Below, piece by piece: positions 6,890 through 23,366 of a stretch of 64,000 nucleotides of DNA (positions are counted from its first letter, which is position 1; every line of letters starts with the position of its first letter). A program made the translations under genes and the position numbers. Location of the stretch: NCBI GenBank assembly GCA_963801355.1, contig CAWDEM010000008.1:2848001-2912000 (forward strand). The letters run 5' to 3'. The notes beneath the pieces were generated by a model that was not told where the DNA came from, did no database searches, and saw only the letters and a program-made list of their open reading frames with translations. The DNA is from Ignavibacteriota bacterium (lineage in GTDB: Bacteria > Bacteroidota > Ignavibacteria > UBA10030 > UBA6906).

Positions 6890-9800
6890 TCACCGGAGGA
6901 GTAGCATAGTGCGAACCAGACTGACCGTACCCGATTGAAGACGGGCGATGTACAGACCGCTTGCCAGGCCCGAGGCATCGAAGCGCACACTGTAGTATCC
7001 CGCCGGCTTCTGTTCATCCACCAGCACCGCCACCTCCCGGCCGAGCAGGTCGTACACCTTTAGAATTATGAATTGTGGATCCACAATTGAGAATTGTAGG
7101 GTCGTACCCGGATTGAAGGGGTTCGGGAAATTCGGCAGGAGTGCGAAGGTGGTGGGTGGGGACATGTCCGGAGATGTGACATCCACCGCGAGGTCTCCGG
7201 TCCCGCCGAATTGATAGTAGCGTGCAGCAAACTCCTGCAGGTAGAGATTGGCGATGGCGGCGTCATGCACAATCAGCGTGTTCTCATTGTTCGAGTTTTC
7301 CGCCGCGCTCGACCAGTTGTGGGAGCCGGTGATGACCGCCGGATATGCGCCGGCCCATCCGGCATCGAGAATGGCATACTTGTGATGCAGGAGCCCTGTG
7401 CCGGACTTCAAATGCAGATCGAGGCCCCGCCCGAGGAGGTAGTCATACTCCGACCCGGTGTCATCCCGGTTGTCCATCACACCGTGGATGGTGACGCCGG
7501 CGTTCTTTCTCGCCAGCACGGCATCTGCAAGGTCGTCGCGCGTGAATGTCAGGAGGGCGAAGTTGATGGAGTGCGTCGCGGAAGAGAGTGCACCGGCAAT
7601 GTGGCTCGTGGTCATGTCGCTCGGACTGAAGTAGCATTCCACATCCCGTCCTCCGATGCGGAAGCGATGCGGGGTGTTGTTGGTCTTGCGGGCGCCGAAT
7701 CTCGAGGCTGACGGACCGGGAGTGTCCGTGCTGCTCCCCCACATTTCATCGAACTCCAGCGTGTACGCGCCGGCCAGGGCCGGATCCTGGATCTCCATGG
7801 CATTCTGGTAATCGTCATTGGTCCCGGGCAGGGTGGGATTCCATGATCCGGTCCAGACCCATACGCTTTCCGGGGCGCCTCCCCGTCCGTCAATCACCGC
7901 GAACTTGTTGTGCATCAATCCTGCACCGGCATTTGCGGCGTCAAAGGCATCGGTGATGAGCGGGATCCCCGCCGACACGAGACTGCTCAATGGTGCCGTG
8001 GAGCGGTTGTCCTGTTCACAGATCACGCGCACGCTGACCCCCCGCGCCCTGGCTGCAATGAGAGCATTTGCGATGTCAGTTCCCGGGCCGGGCGTGCCGC
8101 TCAGGCTGTAGAACGCTGCATCGATGGATCGCCGGGCGCTATTAAGCCTCCCGGCGATCAGCGTCACCAGATTCTGGCTGCCTGCAGCGGGTGGTGTCGT
8201 GACCACCGAGGGCATGACGCTTTTGTTGAAGTACACGTTGATGGCGCCCGATGCCGCAGCCGGCGATGCGGTACTGACGACGAGGTCGCCCGCACGGCTT
8301 GTGTCCACCCCGCTGACCGAATATGCCTGCACATGATACACCGTGGCGGCGGCAAGCCCGCCCACCGGAACGTTGTGCAGCGTACGGAGCACTGTGTCGG
8401 GTGCGACAATGCCGAGTTCATAGCGTGACGTCCTCCCGTAACGCAGCCCCGAGGTGCCGGACCGTGTTGTCGTCCAGGAGAGCGCGAACGATGACGGCGT
8501 GATATTCCCTTCGACCGGCATGGTGGCGATCACGGGACCCGACGAAATGATATCCGCGGTCGACCGGGGCATGATCTGGTAGCCGCCGATGTACGGAGCG
8601 GACCCGACGAATTGGCCCACGACGCCTATGATGTCACACGCAGAGGCCGGGATGACCCCGCCTACAAGATTCGTATTGTTGTCAATGCGAATCTGCGTCG
8701 AATCCGTCAGGTCATACAGGACATAGTTCGTGTTTGACCCCCAAGTGCCGCTTCCGGCGACCATGGCACCGTTGATCCTGACAAGACGGCCCTCGTAAGT
8801 CTCGACGCCGCCCGCACCATCGTCCGCAATCTGTGAAACCGTGACAACGACCGGCTCGACAGTATTCCCGGCTGACACGATTGCATGGAGAGCCGGGTTC
8901 ACAATCTCGGTCAGTCCTGAAAACGGCTGCACGAGTCCGGAAACGACTACCTCATCGCCCAGCGTCACCGCCGTCGAGAACACCGATCCATACACGGCCA
9001 TCCCCCCTGTGTTGTCCTGGATGTAGGAGGGGCCGCCAAATTCGTTTGCAACGGTGACGACACCACGCACGGTGACGAGCGTATTATTCCGCAGGGGGAC
9101 ACCGTTTGCGTCGTTCGACTTCACGAGGGAGATGGGGACCGGAATCCCGTACACAAACACTGAGGCTTGTGACGATAGTGCGAAGATGGAGTCCGGGTGC
9201 GTGCCGGTGAAGGCCTGGAATGTAAACGACGCTGTGGAGTCGGGTGGAGTGATACTCAGCAGCGTGAACTGAAGGCTGTCCATACCGGAGAGGGTGATTC
9301 CGCTCAGCATGATGGTATCACCCGAGACGGCGATGAGCGGGGAGCTTCCGCCGGCTGTAGTGATGTCAGTGGCGGAGTGCGACCAGCTCCATGACGCGGG
9401 CACCTTCACGTGTGCATTGGTGATCACGTACGGGCTTTCTCCCTGCACGGTGAATGTCAGCGCATGGGGAGTCCCGCCCGAGAGCGTCGCAGGCGAAATC
9501 CGCACCTGGCCTTTGCCAACTCCGCCAGCGGCCAGACTTGCGTCGGTCTCCTGGCCTGCGGTGATGGACCACGGGCCGGCGAACACATTGTCGCGCGAAC
9601 CGTCGTCATTCACCGTGACCAGGGAATCAATGATGCCGGCGGGAACGGCGATCTTGAATCCGCCGGCGCTGAAACCGTATCCTTCAGCAATTGCGTTGTC
9701 TTCCGTGCGGTATGTCCCGACGACGGTGCCTCCCGAGTAGGCGAGCACTCCTTTGTTCACTGCAGGTGATACCGGCCGCATGATCCATCCGCCGGCGCTC

Positions 9801-16621: not shown

Positions 16622-17272
16622 TTACAACTCTTTGATAAGTTTCACAACCTTCCAGATAAAATTCACGTCCCGTTTCTTCACGGTCACGGGATCGTATTCC
16701 GGATTCAGCGGAATCAGGTGGATATAGTTTCCTTCGAACTTCACTTTCTTCAACGTATCTTCGCCGTTCACGCGGGCGACGCAGACATCCCCGCTGCGGG
16801 CTTCCTGTTGCGGGCTGACAATCACGACATCGCCGTCTTCGATGCGCGGTGACATGCTGTTCCCCTTCACCTTCAGGGCGAATGCCTGCGCATCCTTCAC
16901 GTCATCCACCGTGACGTAGTCATCCGCAAAATCAGGGTGGAACAGCGTGGCAACCTTACCGGCGGGGACCGCGGCAATCAGCGGCAGGTCCACCGTTTTC
17001 ACACGCCGCCGGTTGCTCCCGGGAAGTGTATATACGTTTTCCGGCCGTGAGGGTGAAGGATACATTTCACCTTCACCCGTGAGGAGCCAGCTTGCCTGCA
17101 CTCCCGTGGCGCGCGCGAGGCGCGTGATGGCAATGCCGTCGGGCACCTGTTCCCCCTTCTCCCAGCGCTGCAACGTGCGCGTCACGATGCCGGCCTTGCC
17201 CGCCAGACTCGCCTGATCCAGCTCCTTGTTTTCCCGCGCGGAACGCAGACGTTCGCCAATGGTCGTTTTCAT
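16622..17272 (-). CDS. XRE-HTH + S24 peptidase repressor (LexA/phage cI-like), 216 aa
   Basis: IGERLRSARE...LQRWEKG HTH; VPAG Ala-Gly cleavage site; KGNSM serine and TLKK lysine intact. Start taken at MKTTIG, not the ORF-track extension. Confidence 0.9.
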   Translation of the reverse strand: MKTTIGERLRSARENKELDQASLAGKAGIVTRTLQRWEKGEQVPDGIAITRLARATGVQASWLLTGEGEMYPSPSRPENVYTLPGSNRRRVKTVDLPLIAAVPAGKVATLFHPDFADDYVTVDDVKDAQAFALKVKGNSMSPRIEDGDVVIVSPQQEARSGDVCVARVNGEDTLKKVKFEGNYIHLIPLNPEYDPVTVKKRDVNFIWKVVKLIKEL

Positions 17273-17284
17273 AAATACCCCGGA

Positions 17285-17335
17285 GACATTTTTGTCAAGA
17301 CCGCACTTGACAAGACGACATTTATGTCGTATCTT
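17285..17335 (+). promoter_or_regulatory. Promoter TTGACA-N17-TATCTT with two GACA-N4-TGTC operator palindromes
   Basis: -35 at 17307-17312, -10 at 17330-17335; ACGACATTTATGTCGT at 17315-17330 in the spacer; GACATTTTTGTC at 17285-17296. Confidence 0.85.
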
Positions 17336-17397
17336 GAACGGGAGAAAGATACGGAAATCCGATGACGCTGTCAAGGGCAAAAATGGGAGGCACGACG

Positions 17398-18309
17398 ATG
17401 CAGGAAACAACACGGTACTATGTCGGAATCGGGGGCTGGGAACATGATCTGCTCAATGGTTGTCTTTATCCGGACGCGGGGGCGACATCATCGCAGAAAC
17501 TCTCCTATTATGCCCGGTGGTTCAACACTGTGGAAGTGCGGCCGACATTCTGGGACGACACGCTCGATGCCGGTGATGCCCGCGAATGGGTGCTTGCCGT
17601 GCGGGAGCAGAAAGACTTCCTCTTCTCTGTGAAGCTCCACTCCGCGCTCACACACAAACACGCGCTCGCCGTACCGAAGACCGGGAACATGGAATCCCTC
17701 CTGGAAATGCTCAACAGTCACGGGCGTCTTGGAGCGGTTCTGGCCCAATTTCCGTACAGTTTCACGAATACAGGCGCCAACCGCCAGTATCTGGAAATGA
17801 TCGCCATCCGGTTCGCCGCGTTTCCACTGCACGTGGAGCTCCGCCATGCATCATGGGACTATCCGGGACTTCACGCCCTGCTGTCCGAATTGAAGGTCGG
17901 ATCTGTCAATGTGGATTTACCGCGCATCCGCCAGCTCATTCCCTACATTCCCCGGATGAGCGGTGACCGGGCTTATCTCCGGCTCCACGGGCGAAACGAA
18001 AAAGGATGGCTGCTCAACACCTTCGACGGACGGTATGACTATCTTTACAACAACCGTGAGATGCAGGAGATCCGTCGTCGTGTCTTCGCCCTCCCTCCGG
18101 ACTGCTCCCGTGCATTCGTGGTGTGGAACAATACGACCGCAGGAAAAGCCGTCGCAAATGCCCTTCAATGCATGGCGATGCTCCGGAGCAACGGCACAAT
18201 CCCGGCACCTCCCCTCGCACTGCAGGCATTCCCCTGGCTTAAGGAGTTCACGCGCACGGCATCGGGCGATGCACCGTTGTTCGGGGATAAATACCGGGAG
18301 GCGATGTGA
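17398..18309 (+). CDS. DUF72 (YecE-like) TIM-barrel protein
   Basis: YVGIGGW, YARWFNTVEV, FLFSVKL, AQFPYSF, VELRHASW, YLRLHGRN, YDYLY; GGAGG RBS before ATG 17398. Confidence 0.9.
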   Translation: MQETTRYYVGIGGWEHDLLNGCLYPDAGATSSQKLSYYARWFNTVEVRPTFWDDTLDAGDAREWVLAVREQKDFLFSVKLHSALTHKHALAVPKTGNMESLLEMLNSHGRLGAVLAQFPYSFTNTGANRQYLEMIAIRFAAFPLHVELRHASWDYPGLHALLSELKVGSVNVDLPRIRQLIPYIPRMSGDRAYLRLHGRNEKGWLLNTFDGRYDYLYNNREMQEIRRRVFALPPDCSRAFVVWNNTTAGKAVANALQCMAMLRSNGTIPAPPLALQAFPWLKEFTRTASGDAPLFGDKYREAM

Positions 18310-18329: not shown

Positions 18330-19088
18330 CTAGCGGTTCGGTCTCTTTTTGCGGACGTCTGTCCGGCCGTCTCGCCGCGAAGAACCGTTAGGGCGGCCGG
18401 CCTGGTTGGAACCTTGAGAACGGCCGGGTTGATTGGAGCGGTGAGAACCGCCTGACTGGTTTGAACGGTGAAAACCGCCGGCCTGGTTGGAACCTTGAGA
18501 ACGGCCGGGTTGGTTGGAGAATTTGGAGCGGTCATTGTGCCCGGTGCCGAACGACCGTTGCGGCCGGCTCCCCGGACTTCCCCCGGGCCGGGGCAGGAGC
18601 GAGGAGAGTTCGTCCACAAAAGATCCCTGGAATTCATACGCGAGAGGATGTGGGGCGAGTCCCGCGCGGACGGGGATCATTGCCACCTCGCGGATGACAT
18701 TGCGCAGCTCCTCCGTCTTTCGCAACACACGTTCGCGGTAGGTGCGTTTCCACAGACGGGGACCTGCAGTACCAGCCGTTGCCGCCGCTGCAGCGATGCG
18801 GAAAGCGGCAAGGAACAACTTCATGTTCGCCCCCTCTTCCTTCCCCCGAATGAGCAGGGTGAGAGTTGAGGGCTGGAAGGTGTAGATCAGGACTTCGAAA
18901 TGGTGCGCCAGGCTTTGATCGCGCAATGCGCCGAGCACCGCACGCACTTCCTCCCGTCCGGCAAATACCGGTCGCGCTTCCAGCGTCTCCAGTGTAACAA
19001 CATACCTGTGCCTGCCGCGATAATCGAATCGCGGTTTGGGCTCTTCACCCGCACTGTGCAGCTGCATGATTTCTGTAGTCGCCATCAT
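18330..19088 (-). CDS. REP-associated tyrosine transposase (RAYT/Y1)-like protein lacking catalytic residues, with low-complexity repeat tail
   Basis: FDY...YVVTL, LWKRTYRERVLR and PVRAGL match the RAYT scaffold; expected MPxHxH reads QPSTLT and YIxxNP reads EVAMIP. Confidence 0.72.
   Translation of the reverse strand: MMATTEIMQLHSAGEEPKPRFDYRGRHRYVVTLETLEARPVFAGREEVRAVLGALRDQSLAHHFEVLIYTFQPSTLTLLIRGKEEGANMKLFLAAFRIAAAAATAGTAGPRLWKRTYRERVLRKTEELRNVIREVAMIPVRAGLAPHPLAYEFQGSFVDELSSLLPRPGGSPGSRPQRSFGTGHNDRSKFSNQPGRSQGSNQAGGFHRSNQSGGSHRSNQPGRSQGSNQAGRPNGSSRRDGRTDVRKKRPNR
18385..18519 (-). repeat. Five 27-bp (9-aa) tandem units SNQxGxxxx
   Basis: SNQPGRSQG SNQAGGFHR SNQSGGSHR SNQPGRSQG SNQAGRPNG; 36-bp exact duplication at 18396-18431 and 18477-18512. 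Confidence 0.9.
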
Positions 19089-19170
19089 TTGCTATGAACA
19101 AGGTGGCACAGTGCACGTCCCAACAATGATCCTCCGAGTTCTTTGCTAGCAGAAGATCGTTGGGACGGCA

Positions 19171-19434
19171 TTAGAGATTCACACCGTGAGCAGTCAGATA
19201 CTGGCGAATCCGGTCCAGCGCTTCCGATTCACTGATGCGCAAACGTACACACGAGGCGCGAACCACCGACTCCAACGGATCGTGCCGGTTTCGCAGCCAG
19301 AGAAACATGTTGTAGCCCAGCCGGTCGAGGTCGTGGGGGTCCTCAACAGGAATTCCCGCGACACTGCCGTAAGCCAGCTTTTCGAGACTCTCGGGCGGTG
19401 CCGGTTTGACCGTGGAAGGAGCTTTCGTTGTCAT
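19171..19434 (-). CDS. Hypothetical protein (87 aa)
   Basis: Compact ORF filling the gap between genes, preceded by a consensus promoter. Confidence 0.7.
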   Translation of the reverse strand: MTTKAPSTVKPAPPESLEKLAYGSVAGIPVEDPHDLDRLGYNMFLWLRNRHDPLESVVRASCVRLRISESEALDRIRQYLTAHGVNL

Positions 19435-19469: not shown

Positions 19470-19498
19470 AATATACAGATTCAAGCAGATGTTTACAA
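19470..19498 (-). promoter_or_regulatory. Promoter TTGTAA-N17-TATATT upstream of the 87-aa gene and RAYT-like gene
   Basis: -35 at 19498-19493, -10 at 19475-19470. Confidence 0.6.
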
Positions 19499-22240
19499 TT
19501 GATATCCGAGCATCAGGTAGACCAGGAACGGTCCCTGTTGAACCGGAATATTCGGGAGAGACCGACTGAAATAGAAACTCTTCCCCACCCCTAAGGCAGC
19601 CGGTCCGACCGGTGTCGCCAGAGCGAGCTCGAGACCGATACCATGAAGGAGGGAGCTGAATGTGATTTCCTCGGGAACCGCTGAAATGGTTCCGAGGTCA
19701 TACCGCGCTCTCAGATACGCATCAAACAGCAGTTGTACGGGCAGAAGGTAGCGCAATTCTGCGTTGACCAGGACAAGCTGCCGCCCGCGGCGGTCATCCT
19801 CGCGCAAACCGTAGAACGACTCGCGCCCCCCGAGGCGGAACTGCTGTGCCAGAGGCATCGTCCTGTCCGAGATCCCCATCGTGAATCTTGGATGAAACGT
19901 CAGGTGCTTTCCCCAGCTCCCGTAGCTCTCGTACATGAGATACAGGGAATTATAGCCGATCTCGCTCCCCAGTCCCTCCAGGGAGAACTCATACGAAAAC
20001 TTCAGCCCGACACCTGCCGTCGGAAACGGATAACTGTCCTTCGTGTCGATGACCGTACTCAGGCGCACCAGAACAAGCCGGTAGCGTTCGTCGAGCGTTG
20101 TCAGGCGGTCGAGGTTCACGAGCCGGACCTTCTGCCACAGGAGGTCCACTGACGTGTTGCCCAGCCGCTCCAGCAGGCTGCCGAACGAAATGCCGAAACC
20201 GTACCGGATTTCCCTGTATTCGCCGATACGATCGCGCTTCCAGCGGTTTGGCTGCTCCTGCGGGGGCGTCGCATACATATAGCTGTCGTAGGAACGGTGG
20301 AACGCATTGACACCAAATGTTACATAGCTCTCAAAGAGGCGTTGCGCCTTGTACTCGAGCGTGAGGTCGCCGTTGCGCGGCCCCCCTGCAATGGTGAACC
20401 CGAGTTCCATGCCTGTACCCTGGAAGTTCTCATCCCGGATATCCAGCAAGCCCTGCAGCTGCCTCTCGTCGTCGGCGCGCATACCGAAACGCACCAGTTG
20501 CGACGGACGTTCTTTGATGCGAATGGTGAGGCGGATGCGGTCGTCCACTGCGGTGATTTCCAGATAGACGAACTCAAACAACTTCGTCCCGCCCAGGTTC
20601 GAGAGACCTCTCCGTGCTTTACCAATCTCAAATACGTCCCCGGTCGTCAGAGGAAACTCGCGGAGTATGAACGGGTCCTGCGTGCGTTCTCCGCCCTGAA
20701 CATCGATGGCGCGGATAACGCCTTCGTCCAGCTCAAGCGTCAGATTCCCGGTTGCTTCATCGAGGTACGCTGTGTCGATCTGTGCAAGCGAAAGCCCTCC
20801 CGCACGGTATGCACGGAGCACCGCTTCGACCATCCGCTCGGCGGTCTCCGGGGTCATCATGGCACCCTTGATGGGCGCAACGATCTTCTGGAGCATTCCC
20901 TCGCTGACGTACGTGCACCCTTTGAAGCGCACATCATGGATCACAGGGTTGAGGATGCCCGAGAACCGCACATCAGTACCGCCGGCATTGCTTCGCACCA
21001 CAGCACTCACGTCCCGGTACTGTCCGGTGGTGTAGAGTTCATCCAGGAATGTGCGAATGGCCGCCGGGGATCCCCAGCGGTGTACTCCGGGCAGCGTACA
21101 GCGATGGAGGATTGAATCCGGGATCGTCGATGTGTCGTATTCCCACCTGACCGGTTCCTGCAGGGCCGACGTGTCCGCTCCGATCAGGAGCTTCGCTCTG
21201 CTCCTTTCCAGCAGCCGCAGGATATCCGGCATACAACGCTCCGCGGTCGCCTCACCGAGACGGATCAGGGTATCCAGACCGCGAAAAGAAGATCCCGGGT
21301 GGCGGCCGATCTCCGGCGTAAGCACGTAATCCGCCAGCTCCAGGCCGCGCTCGTTCACCCGCTCCATCATGATGCCCATGATCTGGTCGGCGGTTTGCCA
21401 GGGTGCTGTCATTTCGTCGGCTGTCCGCAGACCGCTTGTCGTATTGACGGCAATGACGAGATCGCAGCCCGCCGAACGGGCAACGTCGATAGGAACGTTT
21501 GACACAAGTCCGCCGTCGACAAGCCGCATGCTGTCGCGTTCGATCGGAGTGAAGAGCAACGGCACGGTCGAACTTGCGCGCAACGCTTCCGCAAGCGAGC
21601 CGTCGCGCATGACCACACGGCGTCCCGAAATAAGGTCGGTGGCAACTGCGCGGAAGGGAATCTTGAGATGGTCAAAATCGGGAAACGGATGGTACAGGGC
21701 CTGGAGGATTTTGTCACTCAGGAAATCGGTGAGGCGCTGGCCGGACGAGAATGCAGATGGGAGGACCGGAGCAAGCCCCTCGAACCGTACCGCGATGAAG
21801 CTGCGGTCATCCACGAGTTTCTGATCCATGAACAGTTCGGTTCGTTTCGTCTCATCCGACAGCGAGAGCACCTCGTCCCAATTGGTGGTCACCGCAAGTG
21901 ATTCGAGTTCCGCCGGCGAGTAGCCCGCTGCGTACAGCCCTCCCACGATCGCACCCATGCTGGTTGCCGCGATAAAATCCACCGGGATATTGTGCCGGGC
22001 GAGGACCTTCAGCACGCCGATCTGGGCGATGCCGCGCGCACCGCCGCCGCTCAGGACGAGGCCCACGCGCGGCCGGACAAGAGGACGCTCCCGGAGTATG
22101 TCAGCCGGCGTGCACCACTCCGGTTGGTAGTGCGGACGGAGAACACATACGGTATCGGCGGCCAGCGCCGGAGAGACATCCAGGGCGAAGAGAGCCAGCA
22201 AGACAGCCGTCAGGGCGCGGCGCACGGTGTCCGCCAGCAT
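19493..22240 (-). CDS. Patatin-like phospholipase + POTRA + Omp85 barrel (PlpD/type Vd-like)
   Basis: LSGGGARG, ATSMG nucleophile elbow, VDGG, POTRA segments, C-terminal LMLGYQL. Start at Met 22240 or GTG 22264. Confidence 0.9.
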   Translation of the reverse strand: MLADTVRRALTAVLLALFALDVSPALAADTVCVLRPHYQPEWCTPADILRERPLVRPRVGLVLSGGGARGIAQIGVLKVLARHNIPVDFIAATSMGAIVGGLYAAGYSPAELESLAVTTNWDEVLSLSDETKRTELFMDQKLVDDRSFIAVRFEGLAPVLPSAFSSGQRLTDFLSDKILQALYHPFPDFDHLKIPFRAVATDLISGRRVVMRDGSLAEALRASSTVPLLFTPIERDSMRLVDGGLVSNVPIDVARSAGCDLVIAVNTTSGLRTADEMTAPWQTADQIMGIMMERVNERGLELADYVLTPEIGRHPGSSFRGLDTLIRLGEATAERCMPDILRLLERSRAKLLIGADTSALQEPVRWEYDTSTIPDSILHRCTLPGVHRWGSPAAIRTFLDELYTTGQYRDVSAVVRSNAGGTDVRFSGILNPVIHDVRFKGCTYVSEGMLQKIVAPIKGAMMTPETAERMVEAVLRAYRAGGLSLAQIDTAYLDEATGNLTLELDEGVIRAIDVQGGERTQDPFILREFPLTTGDVFEIGKARRGLSNLGGTKLFEFVYLEITAVDDRIRLTIRIKERPSQLVRFGMRADDERQLQGLLDIRDENFQGTGMELGFTIAGGPRNGDLTLEYKAQRLFESYVTFGVNAFHRSYDSYMYATPPQEQPNRWKRDRIGEYREIRYGFGISFGSLLERLGNTSVDLLWQKVRLVNLDRLTTLDERYRLVLVRLSTVIDTKDSYPFPTAGVGLKFSYEFSLEGLGSEIGYNSLYLMYESYGSWGKHLTFHPRFTMGISDRTMPLAQQFRLGGRESFYGLREDDRRGRQLVLVNAELRYLLPVQLLFDAYLRARYDLGTISAVPEEITFSSLLHGIGLELALATPVGPAALGVGKSFYFSRSLPNIPVQQGPFLVYLMLGYQL

Positions 22241-22268
22241 CGGGGAATTTGCGGGTGCCTGCACGGAA

Positions 22269-23366
22269 TCACCTCGGCACATCCGTGCTGAGCCGGAACC
22301 GGAGAACCAATCCCTGTTCCTGGTCCAGCACATACAGTATCTTCTCGAAGAAGGCAAGGCCGCTCGGCCTGCGCAACAACCCGCCTGAGCGCTGCAACCC
22401 GAATGACTCGCTGCGCATGAATCCCCGGCTGGTAAATTTGAACACGCTGTCGAGCGCCGCATCGGCAACAAAGATATCCCGCCGTGACGGGTCGATGGCG
22501 ACAGCAGCCGGACGTGCATAGCGGTTCGGGCGGATGAAGTCGACCAGACGATCATCCAACCTTGCCGGATCGAATCGCGGCAACCATCCCTGGAACTCGC
22601 TTGTGCTCTGGTACACCATCCATAACGCCCCGTACGCCACGCCGTCAGAGGACTGTGCAAGGACAAAATCCCGGCTGTTGGGAAAAGCGGCGATGGCGGT
22701 CGGGTGGTTGATGTTGACAATGCCGGTTCCGATGCCGGTGACAAACGCGGGAAGGGGCGTGATGAATTTGTCGGACGCGTCGAATTGCAGCACCCGCGCG
22801 TCCGGATCAATGAAGCTCGTGTTGTCCGTTCCGTCGCGCACCGCGAGGTAGGTATTGTCGCTCAGCACGGCAATGCCCGGGAATCGCCGCCGGGGATGGG
22901 CGAGTTCCCGCCAGACGGTGTCGATGGGTGCCACGTCCAGGCGATGTGCCGAATCGGCTGACGCCGAGACCAGACGGAGACGGAATATCGCTCCCACCGT
23001 ATCCCCGTTCGTGGCAATCAATTCACCGCCCACCAGCAGGTCAAGACGCGAATCCTGAGACAGCGATACGGGATGGAGCATGGCACGCGTGCTCAGGACA
23101 CCACCTGCTCTGTTCAGCATCACGATGCGGTTTGCGCGCGTATCGGCGACATAGAGCAACTGATCCCGGCCGAGAAGAATTCCCTCGGGCTCTGTGAACC
23201 CGCCGAACGGCGGCTCGATCGTTACATAGGCCGTGTCAATCAACGTCGCCGGCTGCTGTGGAAGGCTTCCCAGATCCATGGGCGAATCGCACCCTGTCTC
23301 CAGTGATATCCAGAGCAGGGCCGCGAGACACGCGGCACGGCGTGCTATGTGCATCGGTGTCTGCAT
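22269..23366 (-). CDS. Lipoprotein with NHL/beta-propeller repeats
   Basis: Lipobox-like ETGC; PEGI...LYVADT, PAAVAID...IFVAD, PSGLAF...LYVLD. Confidence 0.75.
   Translation of the reverse strand: MQTPMHIARRAACLAALLWISLETGCDSPMDLGSLPQQPATLIDTAYVTIEPPFGGFTEPEGILLGRDQLLYVADTRANRIVMLNRAGGVLSTRAMLHPVSLSQDSRLDLLVGGELIATNGDTVGAIFRLRLVSASADSAHRLDVAPIDTVWRELAHPRRRFPGIAVLSDNTYLAVRDGTDNTSFIDPDARVLQFDASDKFITPLPAFVTGIGTGIVNINHPTAIAAFPNSRDFVLAQSSDGVAYGALWMVYQSTSEFQGWLPRFDPARLDDRLVDFIRPNRYARPAAVAIDPSRRDIFVADAALDSVFKFTSRGFMRSESFGLQRSGGLLRRPSGLAFFEKILYVLDQEQGLVLRFRLSTDVPR

What the first reader, a model, noticed from the sequence alone, without database searches (positions are those of the whole stretch)
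18330..19088. Catalytically dead RAYT-like transposase with an intact ORF and a disordered repeat tail: possible domestication
Seen: an uninterrupted 252-aa ORF keeps the RAYT/Y1 scaffold (FDY..YVVT, LWxRxYxxRVLR, PVRAGL). The metal-binding HUH (normally MPxHxH) reads QPSTLT and the catalytic Tyr (YIxxNP) reads EVAMIP. It ends in a G/S/R/N/Q-rich tail with five 9-aa repeats and a basic KKRPNR end. Known: HUH and Tyr are required for HUH-endonuclease chemistry, and RAYT/TnpA bind ssDNA hairpins. Inference: losing all three catalytic residues without stops or frameshifts suggests a repurposed, non-cutting hairpin DNA/RNA-binding protein, with a tail resembling the RG-rich tails of RNA helicases.
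Basis: partly seen in the sequence, partly recalled or inferred. Interest (0 to 1): 0.78.

Follow-up and report, generated by a model that had tools for sequence, protein, structure and literature searches.

The report
Nuclease-dead RAYT transposase kept as host gene
This gene is a descendant of a REP-associated (RAYT) transposase that lost its whole cutting site long ago, yet one bacterial family has kept it as a conserved single-copy chromosomal gene with a basic floppy tail, so it probably now binds nucleic acid instead of cutting it.

Summary
Window 18330-19088 (-) is an intact 252-aa ORF with a RAYT/Y1-transposase fold. Its best structural match is E. coli TnpA_REP 4er8 (VIA Z 16.5; Foldseek E 1e-7). 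The HUH histidines, the catalytic Tyr and the Asn metal ligand read T, T, E and I.

It is not a decaying copy. The loss is shared by a strongly supported clade (SH-aLRT 100) of 39 cluster representatives, none of which has H, H or Y. The 108 live relatives in the same hit set keep all of them.

The gene has one copy in its 4.8-Mb genome. It sits in the same chromosomal slot in 30+ relatives, often with its start overlapping the stop of an upstream SDR gene. The core evolves under purifying selection (omega 0.06-0.23 for close pairs).

Strong matches occur only in the window's own taxonomic family: 11 of 13 genomes there against 0 of 387 elsewhere in the class. The genome holds no REP family.

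All orthologues carry a basic, disordered C-terminal tail of 7-444 aa, and different lineages built different tandem repeats in it.

Domestication is well supported. The proposed job, binding structured DNA or RNA without cutting it, is inferred and untested. My literature searches found no description of such a dead RAYT clade.

The parts
18330..19088 (-). Complete ORF of the nuclease-dead RAYT-like protein (252 aa; stop codon at 18330-18332; the true start may be the second ATG at 19085)
   Evidence: homologues; single copy in the genome
18609..19037 (-). Folded core, residues about 18-160, with a Y1/HUH (RAYT-type) fold
   Evidence: The AF2 model has pLDDT 89-98 over residues 21-160. Foldseek: 4er8_A E 1.1e-7, TM 0.74 normalised to the target. 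VIA-align: Z 16.5, rmsd 3.3 over 147 residues. NCBIfam NF047646: E 1e-11, 44.9 bits, below its cut-off of 80.
18858..18866 (-). Former HUH motif, now T75-L76-T77
   Evidence: Read from the sequence. Aligned to H59-M60-H61 of 4er8. This column is H in 108 of 108 live homologues and variable in the dead clade.
18675..18689 (-). Former catalytic helix motif Y-x-x-x-N, now E134-V-A-M-I138 (Tyr nucleophile -> Glu; Asn metal ligand -> Ile)
18333..18593 (-). Basic disordered C-terminal tail, residues 166-252 (pI about 12, net charge +13 counted from residue 159)
   Evidence: pLDDT 46-52 in the model. Composition S18 G17 R15 P8 Q8 N8 %. Omega 0.36 against the nearest relative, compared with 0.087 for the core.
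18382..18518 (-). Five tandem 27-nt (9-aa) repeats inside the tail. Copy number differs between close relatives.
   Evidence: There is a 27-codon indel against the G002 copy. P0002 and P0003 have fewer units.
19116..19167 (.). 12-nt inverted repeat in the 82-nt spacer between the upstream 87-aa gene and this ORF. It is specific to this genome and not conserved in the same-genus loci examined.
   Evidence: I1, 92% complementary, 28 nt between arms; upstream regions compared; no terminator-like site found
19171..19434 (-). Upstream 87-aa gene of unknown family. It is a synteny neighbour, not a specific partner.
   Evidence: Found in 58 of 61 genomes of the order, whether or not they hold the dead RAYT. 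No hit in Pfam, PADLOC or PHROGs.

Best explanation
The gene encodes a domesticated, nuclease-dead descendant of a RAYT-type (TnpA_REP-like) Y1 HUH transposase.

Shown: an ancestor within one bacterial family (MAGs labelled Ignavibacteriae, Ignavibacteriota or Bacteroidota) lost both HUH histidines, the Tyr nucleophile and the Asn ligand once. Since then the protein has been inherited vertically as a single-copy chromosomal gene in a fixed slot inside host operons. Its folded core is under purifying selection. The residues that hold the RAYT fold together are kept. The former active-site columns drift freely. A new set of residues (R28, R56, R97, E119, R120, S156, F157) became fixed. The core became more basic.

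Inferred: the protein works as a non-cutting binder of structured single-stranded nucleic acid (DNA or RNA stem-loops), using the surface RAYTs use to hold REP hairpins. The basic disordered tail, which several lineages expanded independently, adds non-specific or multivalent nucleic-acid affinity. Which nucleic acid it binds, and the cellular process it serves, are unknown.
For: Fold. The best structural match is E. coli TnpA_REP bound to a REP hairpin (4er8_A), with Foldseek E 1.1e-7 and VIA Z 16.5 over 147 residues. That stands clear of the IS608, ISDra2 and IS200 TnpA chains at Z 10-12.8 over about 100 residues.

Dead site. The profile-to-4er8 alignment gives H59/H61/Y115/N119 -> T/T/E/I. 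Among the 201 homologues collected, 108 read H-H-Y. Every one of the 39 rows in the window's clade has other residues, and those residues vary.

One origin. That clade has SH-aLRT 100.

Selection. 84 pairs with 0.1<dS<1.5 have median omega 0.31 (range 0.033-0.52). The 9 pairs with dS<0.5 have omega 0.06-0.23. The window against same-genus copies gives 0.094 and 0.066. Against the nearest relative the core gives 0.087 and the tail 0.36.

Host-gene behaviour. The complete genome holds one copy. There is one strong match each in 21 of 36 other genomes of the same family. The order TBDR-PorV-patatin/Omp85-87aa-(MarC)-(SDR)-deadRAYT-DUF72-LexA/S24-DUF1015 is shared across loci. In L043, L045 and L047 the SDR stop overlaps the dead-RAYT ATG by one base.

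Range. 12 of 401 genomes of the class have a match at E<=1e-30, and all 12 are in the window's family.

Pattern of constraint. The columns conserved only in live proteins are M72, D74, H75, H77, L79, Q114, Y134, N138 and position 9 (Arg in 94% of live rows), so all but the last lie at the active site. Fold columns are conserved in both groups. Median core pI is 9.8 for dead proteins against 8.0 for live ones. R78 of 4er8, a base-specific hairpin contact (PMC3479197 passages), aligns with R97, which is 96% conserved in the dead clade.

Tails. In the 32 orthologues measured the tail is 7-444 aa long, with pI 8.8-12 (at least 10 in 31 of 32) and a net positive charge in every one. Lineages carry different repeat units.
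Against: No binding data of any kind exist, and no candidate ligand was found. The genome has no REP or REPIN family. The hairpin upstream of the gene is not conserved in the same-genus loci examined.

Two of the three base-specific hairpin contacts of 4er8 (K82, R97) are not conserved here.

The neighbouring genes give no functional hint.

The gene is not found in 15 of 36 genomes of its own family, including several that are 100% complete. Four such loci show a clean gap with no remnant. So it is dispensable in some lineages.

Three of the 32 orthologues measured have near-neutral cores, pI 6.4-6.9.

dS is above 1 for many pairs, so those omega values are rough.
Confidence: 0.55

Rival explanations
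1. It is an ordinary decaying transposase pseudogene that happens still to be open.
For: The catalytic residues are gone. Pfam Y1_Tnp does not match it at all.
Against: The same loss is shared by a 39-row clade with SH-aLRT 100. Omega is 0.06-0.23 for close pairs. The gene is single-copy and syntenic across genera. No frameshifts were seen: the one apparently split copy (G002) is interrupted by an assembly gap of N, not by a mutation.
Confidence: 0.02
2. It is still an enzyme and uses other residues for nucleic-acid chemistry, for example the clade-specific invariant E119/R120 or one of the conserved tyrosines Y23, Y29, Y69, Y117 or Y151.
For: Several polar residues are invariant only in the dead clade: E119, R120, R28 and R56. 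Five tyrosines are conserved.
Against: Three of the five tyrosines (Y23, Y29, Y69) are flagged as equally conserved in live RAYTs, so these are fold residues and not new nucleophiles. Y117 and Y151 are not flagged there, so that table leaves them untested. All four metal or nucleophile columns are variable within the clade, with no compensating conserved H, D, E or Y at those sites.
Confidence: 0.05
3. It is a general basic nucleoid-, ribosome- or RNA-associated protein whose affinity comes mostly from the disordered tail. On this reading the RAYT core is only a stable scaffold or a dimerisation/protein-binding module, with no hairpin specificity.
For: Tails are always basic and were expanded repeatedly. 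No specific DNA repeat partner exists in the genome. The RAYT fold also matches ribosomal protein S6 weakly, at Z about 7.
Against: The core is under much stronger constraint than the tail (omega 0.087 against 0.36). It has its own clade-specific invariant basic residues. Some orthologues have tails of only 7-9 residues, so the core must carry the function.
Confidence: 0.2
4. It is a decoy or inhibitor that protects the genome from live Y1/HUH elements (IS200/IS605, RAYT/REP, rolling-circle plasmids or ssDNA phages). It would occupy their hairpins or poison their transposase.
For: The genome holds only one Pfam-level Y1_Tnp match and no REP family. Truncated or dead transposases acting as inhibitors are known from other transposon families; this point is recalled and comes from no call.
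Against: There is no match to PADLOC defence models. The gene sits in a housekeeping-type operon and not in a defence island. No test was possible.
Confidence: 0.1

Closest known systems
RAYT / TnpA_REP (REP-associated tyrosine transposase; E. coli structure 4er8; NCBIfam NF047646; class 2 of Quentin et al. 2018)
   Same: The fold, including helix alpha-D and the C-terminal part, matches (Z 16.5 over 147 residues). The fold motifs FDY..Y.VT, Y.F.P, LW...Y..R.LR and PV.AGL are shared. Like RAYTs it is single-copy, chromosomal and vertically inherited. RAYTs are described as single-copy in PMC5581495 (passages).
   Different: It has no HUH, no catalytic Tyr and no Asn ligand. The genome has no REP/REPIN family. 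It scores below the NF047646 cut-off (44.9 against 80 bits). It has a long basic disordered tail where E. coli TnpA_REP has a short C-terminus carrying a metal ligand (E161). The core is more basic.
IS200/IS605 TnpA (Y1 transposases of IS608, ISDra2 and IS200)
   Same: The HUH-type beta-sheet core matches (Z 10-12.8 over about 100 residues).
   Different: It is not multi-copy and not part of an IS. Pfam PF01797 gives no hit at E<=10. The catalytic residues are absent.
TldR (TnpB-like nuclease-dead repressors), as a parallel and not a relative
   Same: It shows the same evolutionary logic: a protein from an IS200/IS605-type element loses its nuclease residues and the host retains it. TldR is known to me here only from the search listings and abstracts of PMC10705468 and PMC13622181.
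   Different: The fold is unrelated (RuvC-type, RNA-guided). TldR has an experimentally shown function; this protein has none.

Membership tests
RAYT / TnpA_REP | Y1 HUH-endonuclease fold of the RAYT type | tested here: met
   4er8_A is the best match: Foldseek E 1.1e-7; VIA Z 16.5, rmsd 3.3, 147 residues aligned
RAYT / TnpA_REP | HUH metal-binding motif (H59-M60-H61 in E. coli TnpA_REP) | tested here: not met
   It reads T75-L76-T77. No member of the 39-row clade has either His.
RAYT / TnpA_REP | Catalytic tyrosine on helix alpha-D (Y115) with the Asn ligand at +4 (N119) | tested here: not met
   E134 and I138. These columns are Y in 100% and N in 96% of 108 live homologues, and variable in the dead clade.
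RAYT / TnpA_REP | A family of REP/REPIN palindromes in the same genome, usually flanking the gene | tested here: not met
   The top 14-mers occur at most 29 times. Those inspected lie in repeated protein-coding segments. The genome has 738 perfect 9-bp hairpins and no stem recurs more than 4 times. Only exact-seed methods were used, so degenerate low-copy repeats could be missed.
RAYT / TnpA_REP | Single copy per genome, vertical inheritance | tested here: met
RAYT / TnpA_REP | Score above the curated family cut-off (NF047646, 80 bits) | tested here: not met
   44.9 bits, E 1e-11
IS200/IS605 TnpA (Pfam Y1_Tnp PF01797) | Match to PF01797 | tested here: not met
   0 families at E<=10 for the window protein. 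Only 2 of 37 clade members reach E<=1, the best at 0.048.
IS200/IS605 TnpA (Pfam Y1_Tnp PF01797) | Multi-copy insertion sequence with subterminal hairpins | tested here: not met
   Single copy in a fixed syntenic slot
IS200/IS605 TnpA (Pfam Y1_Tnp PF01797) | Obligate interwoven dimer | tested here: inconclusive
   A homodimer prediction gave no verdict, which is no evidence either way.

The most novel reading that the evidence does not exclude
This is the first nuclease-dead, host-retained branch of the TnpA(Y1)/RAYT lineage, a TnpA counterpart of the TnpB-derived TldR repressors. On this reading the REP-hairpin-binding platform has been converted into a sequence- or structure-specific reader of stem-loops in ssDNA or RNA, for example at replication forks, transcription bubbles or mRNA 3' ends. 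Lineage-specific expansions of the basic repeat tail would tune multivalent or condensate-like binding.
Probability: 0.3. Interest if true: 0.8.

Novelty: new variant of a known kind. Interest (0 to 1): 0.62.

Why it matters
RAYTs are the textbook case of a domesticated bacterial transposase, yet the described ones keep the catalytic centre they share with IS200 (passage of PMC5581495). The main survey of the superfamily set aside proteins lacking the HuH and Y motifs as probably non-functional (PMC6006769, passage seen).

Here a whole clade without these residues has been kept under purifying selection in a fixed chromosomal slot across many genera. So the Y1/HUH fold can be reused without its chemistry.

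This gives a natural binding-only version of a hairpin-recognising HUH protein. That would interest people who study transposon domestication and bacterial nucleic-acid-binding proteins with disordered tails, and those who engineer HUH tags.

The limits are that the function is unknown and the hosts are uncultured.

Tried and rejected
1. The upstream 87-aa gene as a specific partner: rejected. It is present in 58 of 61 genomes of the order regardless of the dead RAYT. In most genera MarC and SDR genes lie between the two.

2. REP/REPIN partner repeats: none found by 14-mer counting or by perfect-hairpin counting.

3. The upstream hairpin at 19116-19167 as a conserved element: it is not conserved in the same-genus loci examined.

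4. Similar tails elsewhere in the genome: none. tblastn with the tail found nothing below E 0.006, and a composition scan flagged only this gene plus one unrelated ORF.

5. Extra globular domains in long tails: none above cut-off in 12 long members. One had an Extensin-like low-complexity hit at 71 bits, below its cut-off of 105.

6. PADLOC and PHROGs: no match.

7. PDB search with the single sequence: only chance hits at E>=0.93. The family profile was needed.

9. Homodimer prediction of the core: no verdict, score 0.00 against a mark of 0.42. This is no evidence either way.

11. The search for related loci with the broad alignment A2 failed for lack of a conserved stretch. It was repeated with the narrower alignment A3.

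12. A single P-II Pfam hit in one member of A2 was not followed up.

13. The first tree run used a Tyr column off by one and crashed at display. It was redone.

Full report
OBSERVATION. Window 18330-19088 (minus strand) is an uninterrupted 252-aa ORF. A 27-nt tandem array at 18382-18518 (5.1 copies, 75% matches) encodes five 9-aa units, and the protein ends in KKRPNR. Orthologues begin MATTE, so the second ATG may be the real start.

WHAT FAMILY IT COMES FROM. Pfam gives no hit even at E<=10. NCBIfam's REP-associated tyrosine transposase model NF047646 matches residues 26-153 at E 1e-11, but with 44.9 bits against a cut-off of 80.

An AlphaFold2 model built on 28 homologues is confident over residues 21-160 (pLDDT 89-98 per 10-residue block) and disordered from about residue 170 (pLDDT 46-52). 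Its best structural match is E. coli TnpA_REP bound to a REP hairpin, 4er8_A. Foldseek gives E 1.1e-7 and TM 0.74 normalised to the target. VIA-align gives Z 16.5, rmsd 3.3 A over 147 residues. That is well above the IS608, ISDra2 and IS200 transposases at Z 10-12.8 over about 100 residues. The ESM Atlas feature search also returns Y1_Tnp/RAYT clusters. The fold is therefore specifically RAYT-like.

THE ACTIVE SITE IS GONE. Passages of the 4er8 paper (PMC3479197) name the active site: Y115, H59-M60-H61, N119, H123 and E161. A profile of 37 family members aligns to 4er8 (E 2.1e-4) and places H59, H61, Y115 and N119 opposite T75, T77, E134 and I138 of the window protein.

I aligned all 201 proteins returned by the two homology searches and read these columns. 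108 read H-H-Y. The window's relatives carry R/T/Q/K/S/A/V/M/L/E at the first His, L/T/V/A/I/M/C/Q/S at the second, and E/D/T/Q/G/S/I/M/A/R at the Tyr.

A column-by-column comparison of 26 dead-clade representatives with the 108 live proteins shows three classes:
- Conserved only in live proteins: M72, D74, H75, H77, L79, Q114, Y134, N138 and position 9 (Arg in 94% of live rows). All but the last lie at the active site.
- Conserved in both groups (fold residues): Y23, G25, Y29, T32, Y69, P73, G82, F92, L112, W113, R123, V140, G143, L144 and G155.
- Fixed only in the dead clade: R28, L52, R56, M89, R97, E119, R120, S156 and F157.

IT IS A CLADE, NOT A WRECK. I built a maximum-likelihood tree of 82 core sequences. 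It held 47 of the 86 non-HHY proteins of at least 140 aa; the 39 dropped were mostly close relatives. It also held every third of the 105 live proteins, which is 35. The tree puts 39 rows, all dead, on one side of a branch with SH-aLRT 100. The other 8 non-HHY rows are scattered singly among live proteins. The tree used the quick method and is unrooted.

SELECTION. I extracted 38 distinct orthologous coding sequences from fetched loci and computed Nei-Gojobori dN/dS on the core, residues 1-165. The 84 pairs with 0.1<dS<1.5 have median omega 0.31 (range 0.033-0.52). The 9 pairs with dS<0.5 have omega 0.06-0.23. The window against two same-genus copies gives 0.094 and 0.066. Many pairs have dS above 1, where the estimate is rough. 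Pairs that include L039 are distorted, because that copy is cut by an assembly gap.

A separate comparison with that nearest relative gives omega 0.087 for core residues 89-158 and 0.36 for the tail, with a 27-codon indel inside the repeats. Both parts are therefore constrained, the core much more strongly.

HOST-GENE BEHAVIOUR. The window's genome (4.8 Mb, 8 contigs, 100% complete) has one copy; the next hit has E 0.07. It has a single Pfam-level Y1_Tnp match elsewhere.

Among 60 relatives, 21 of the 36 genomes of the same taxonomic family have one strong match each (E<=3e-39). Three more have only weak matches, and 12 have none. Ten of the 24 genomes of other families in the order have matches, the best at E 4.6e-25. 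The three I inspected (L026-L028) are live proteins with HxH and Y.

A sample of 401 genomes of the class gives 12 with E<=1e-30. All 12 are in the window's family (11 of 13, plus the window's own genome), against 0 of 387 in other families. A scan of one genome per species returned 34 loci, all from MAGs labelled Ignavibacteriae, Ignavibacteriota, Bacteroidota, Chlorobi or Chitinophagales.

tblastn of the window's neighbours against all loci shows a shared gene order: TonB-dependent receptor, PorV, patatin-POTRA-Omp85, 87-aa protein, dead RAYT, DUF72 (convergent), LexA/S24-like, DUF1015, aminotransferase.

I examined 22 loci for the gene just upstream of the dead RAYT:
- 13 have an SDR gene ending within 16 nt of the dead-RAYT start. 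In L043, L045 and L047 the stop overlaps the ATG by one base.
- 4 have a MarC-family gene there.
- 5, including the window's genus, have the 87-aa gene.

Four family genomes that lack the gene show the same neighbourhood with no remnant: the best six-frame profile hit is E 2.8. The gene can therefore be absent, and it was not found in several complete genomes.

NO REP PARTNER. The most frequent 14-mers of the genome occur at most 29 times. Those inspected lie in repeated protein-coding segments, which I read as secretion-tail and kinase motifs; that reading is mine. Of 738 perfect 9-bp hairpins, no stem recurs more than 4 times. The 12-nt inverted repeat upstream of the gene is not conserved in the same-genus loci examined. 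These methods use exact seeds and could miss degenerate repeats.

THE TAIL. In the 32 orthologues measured, the segment after the conserved GSFV motif is 7 to 444 aa long. Its pI is 8.8-12 (at least 10 in 31 of 32), its net charge is positive in every one, and it is rich in P, R, G, K and S. Different lineages carry different tandem units. The window has a 9-aa unit. P0065 has a 15-aa unit repeated about a dozen times. P0031, P0038 and P0075 carry further repeat units of their own, also about 11-15 aa long. No Pfam domain is present in 12 long members. No other protein of this genome has a similar tail. The conserved basic end and omega of 0.36 show that the tail is translated and constrained.

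MECHANISM. Shown: the protein has a RAYT fold, it lacks all alignable catalytic residues, and it has been kept as a host gene. Inferred: it binds structured single-stranded nucleic acid without cutting. The support is indirect:
- The fold is that of a hairpin binder.
- R78 of 4er8, a base-specific hairpin contact, aligns with the nearly invariant R97.
- The core is more basic than in live relatives (median pI 9.8 against 8.0).
- The clade fixed additional Arg residues.
- The tail is always basic.

Against this, there is no ligand, no binding data and no informative gene context, and two of the three 4er8 base contacts are not conserved. I put about 0.9 on 'dead and domesticated' and about 0.5 on 'non-cutting nucleic-acid binder'. 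The rivals are listed separately: pseudogene, alternative chemistry, generic basic protein, and decoy against Y1 elements.

COMPARISON AND NOVELTY. The protein works from the RAYT scaffold but fails the defining RAYT features: HUH, Tyr, REP association and the curated score. It should not be filed as a RAYT.

- The superfamily survey PMC6006769 states, in a passage I read, that proteins without the core motifs were taken as probably non-functional and that only those with HuH and Y were retained. I did not open its additional files.
- PMC5581495 describes RAYTs as single-copy domesticated transposases sharing the catalytic centre of IS200. In the passages I searched, the terms 'inactive' and 'HUH' did not occur.
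- Three full-text searches listed no paper on a catalytically dead RAYT or Y1 clade.
- The nearest parallel in logic is the TnpB-derived nuclease-dead TldR repressors, which I saw only as abstracts.

I rate this a new variant of a known kind. It is interesting to transposon and HUH specialists, but limited by the unknown function and the uncultured hosts.

Noticed in passing
window 19171-19434 (-): An 87-aa protein with no hit in Pfam, PADLOC or PHROGs is present in 58 of 61 genomes of the order. It is a widely conserved small protein of unknown function.
   Followed up: partly
window 19493-22810 (-): A 1105-aa ORF combines Patatin phospholipase, POTRA and Omp85 domains. The called ORF has a long N-terminal extension that may reflect an upstream start artefact.
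   Followed up: no
window 16622-17413 (-) and 17362-18309 (+): A LexA-like HTH + S24 peptidase gene and a DUF72 gene are divergent, and their called 5' ends overlap by 52 nt, so at least one start is probably called too far upstream. The pair is conserved next to each other in most related loci.
   Followed up: no
L042 about 7900-8000; L058 about 7817-8000: In L042 the roughly 70 nt upstream of the dead-RAYT start resemble the 3' end of the SDR gene that sits there in sister genera, although the SDR ORF itself is missing. L058 shows a weaker likeness. This looks like a remnant of an SDR deletion (by eye).
   Followed up: no
G000:C8:1730724-1731050 (L003): This is the only Pfam-level Y1_Tnp (PF01797) match in the genome, at 39.3 bits in an open frame of 198 aa. 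The search with the window protein did not detect it as related.
   Followed up: no
L016 (G007:C34), ORF of 595 aa: This orthologue has a 444-aa G/R/P-rich tail, the longest seen. I did not check whether the whole frame is translated.
   Followed up: partly
L039 / L025 (G002:C65): The copy in this same-genus MAG appears split into two frames, but the break is an assembly gap of N and not a mutation.
   Followed up: yes
genome G000, many sites, e.g. C8:2855072 (inside the window at about 7072): The most repeated 14-mers of the genome lie in repeated C-terminal protein-coding segments containing QNYPNPFNP-type motifs. I read these as secretion sorting tails; that reading is mine and comes from no family search.
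   Followed up: partly
P0088, P0091, P0104, P0156, P0177, P0194, P0200: These are isolated homologues inside the live RAYT-like part of the tree that each lack one or more of H, H, Y. They may be independent recent inactivations or sequencing errors.
   Followed up: no
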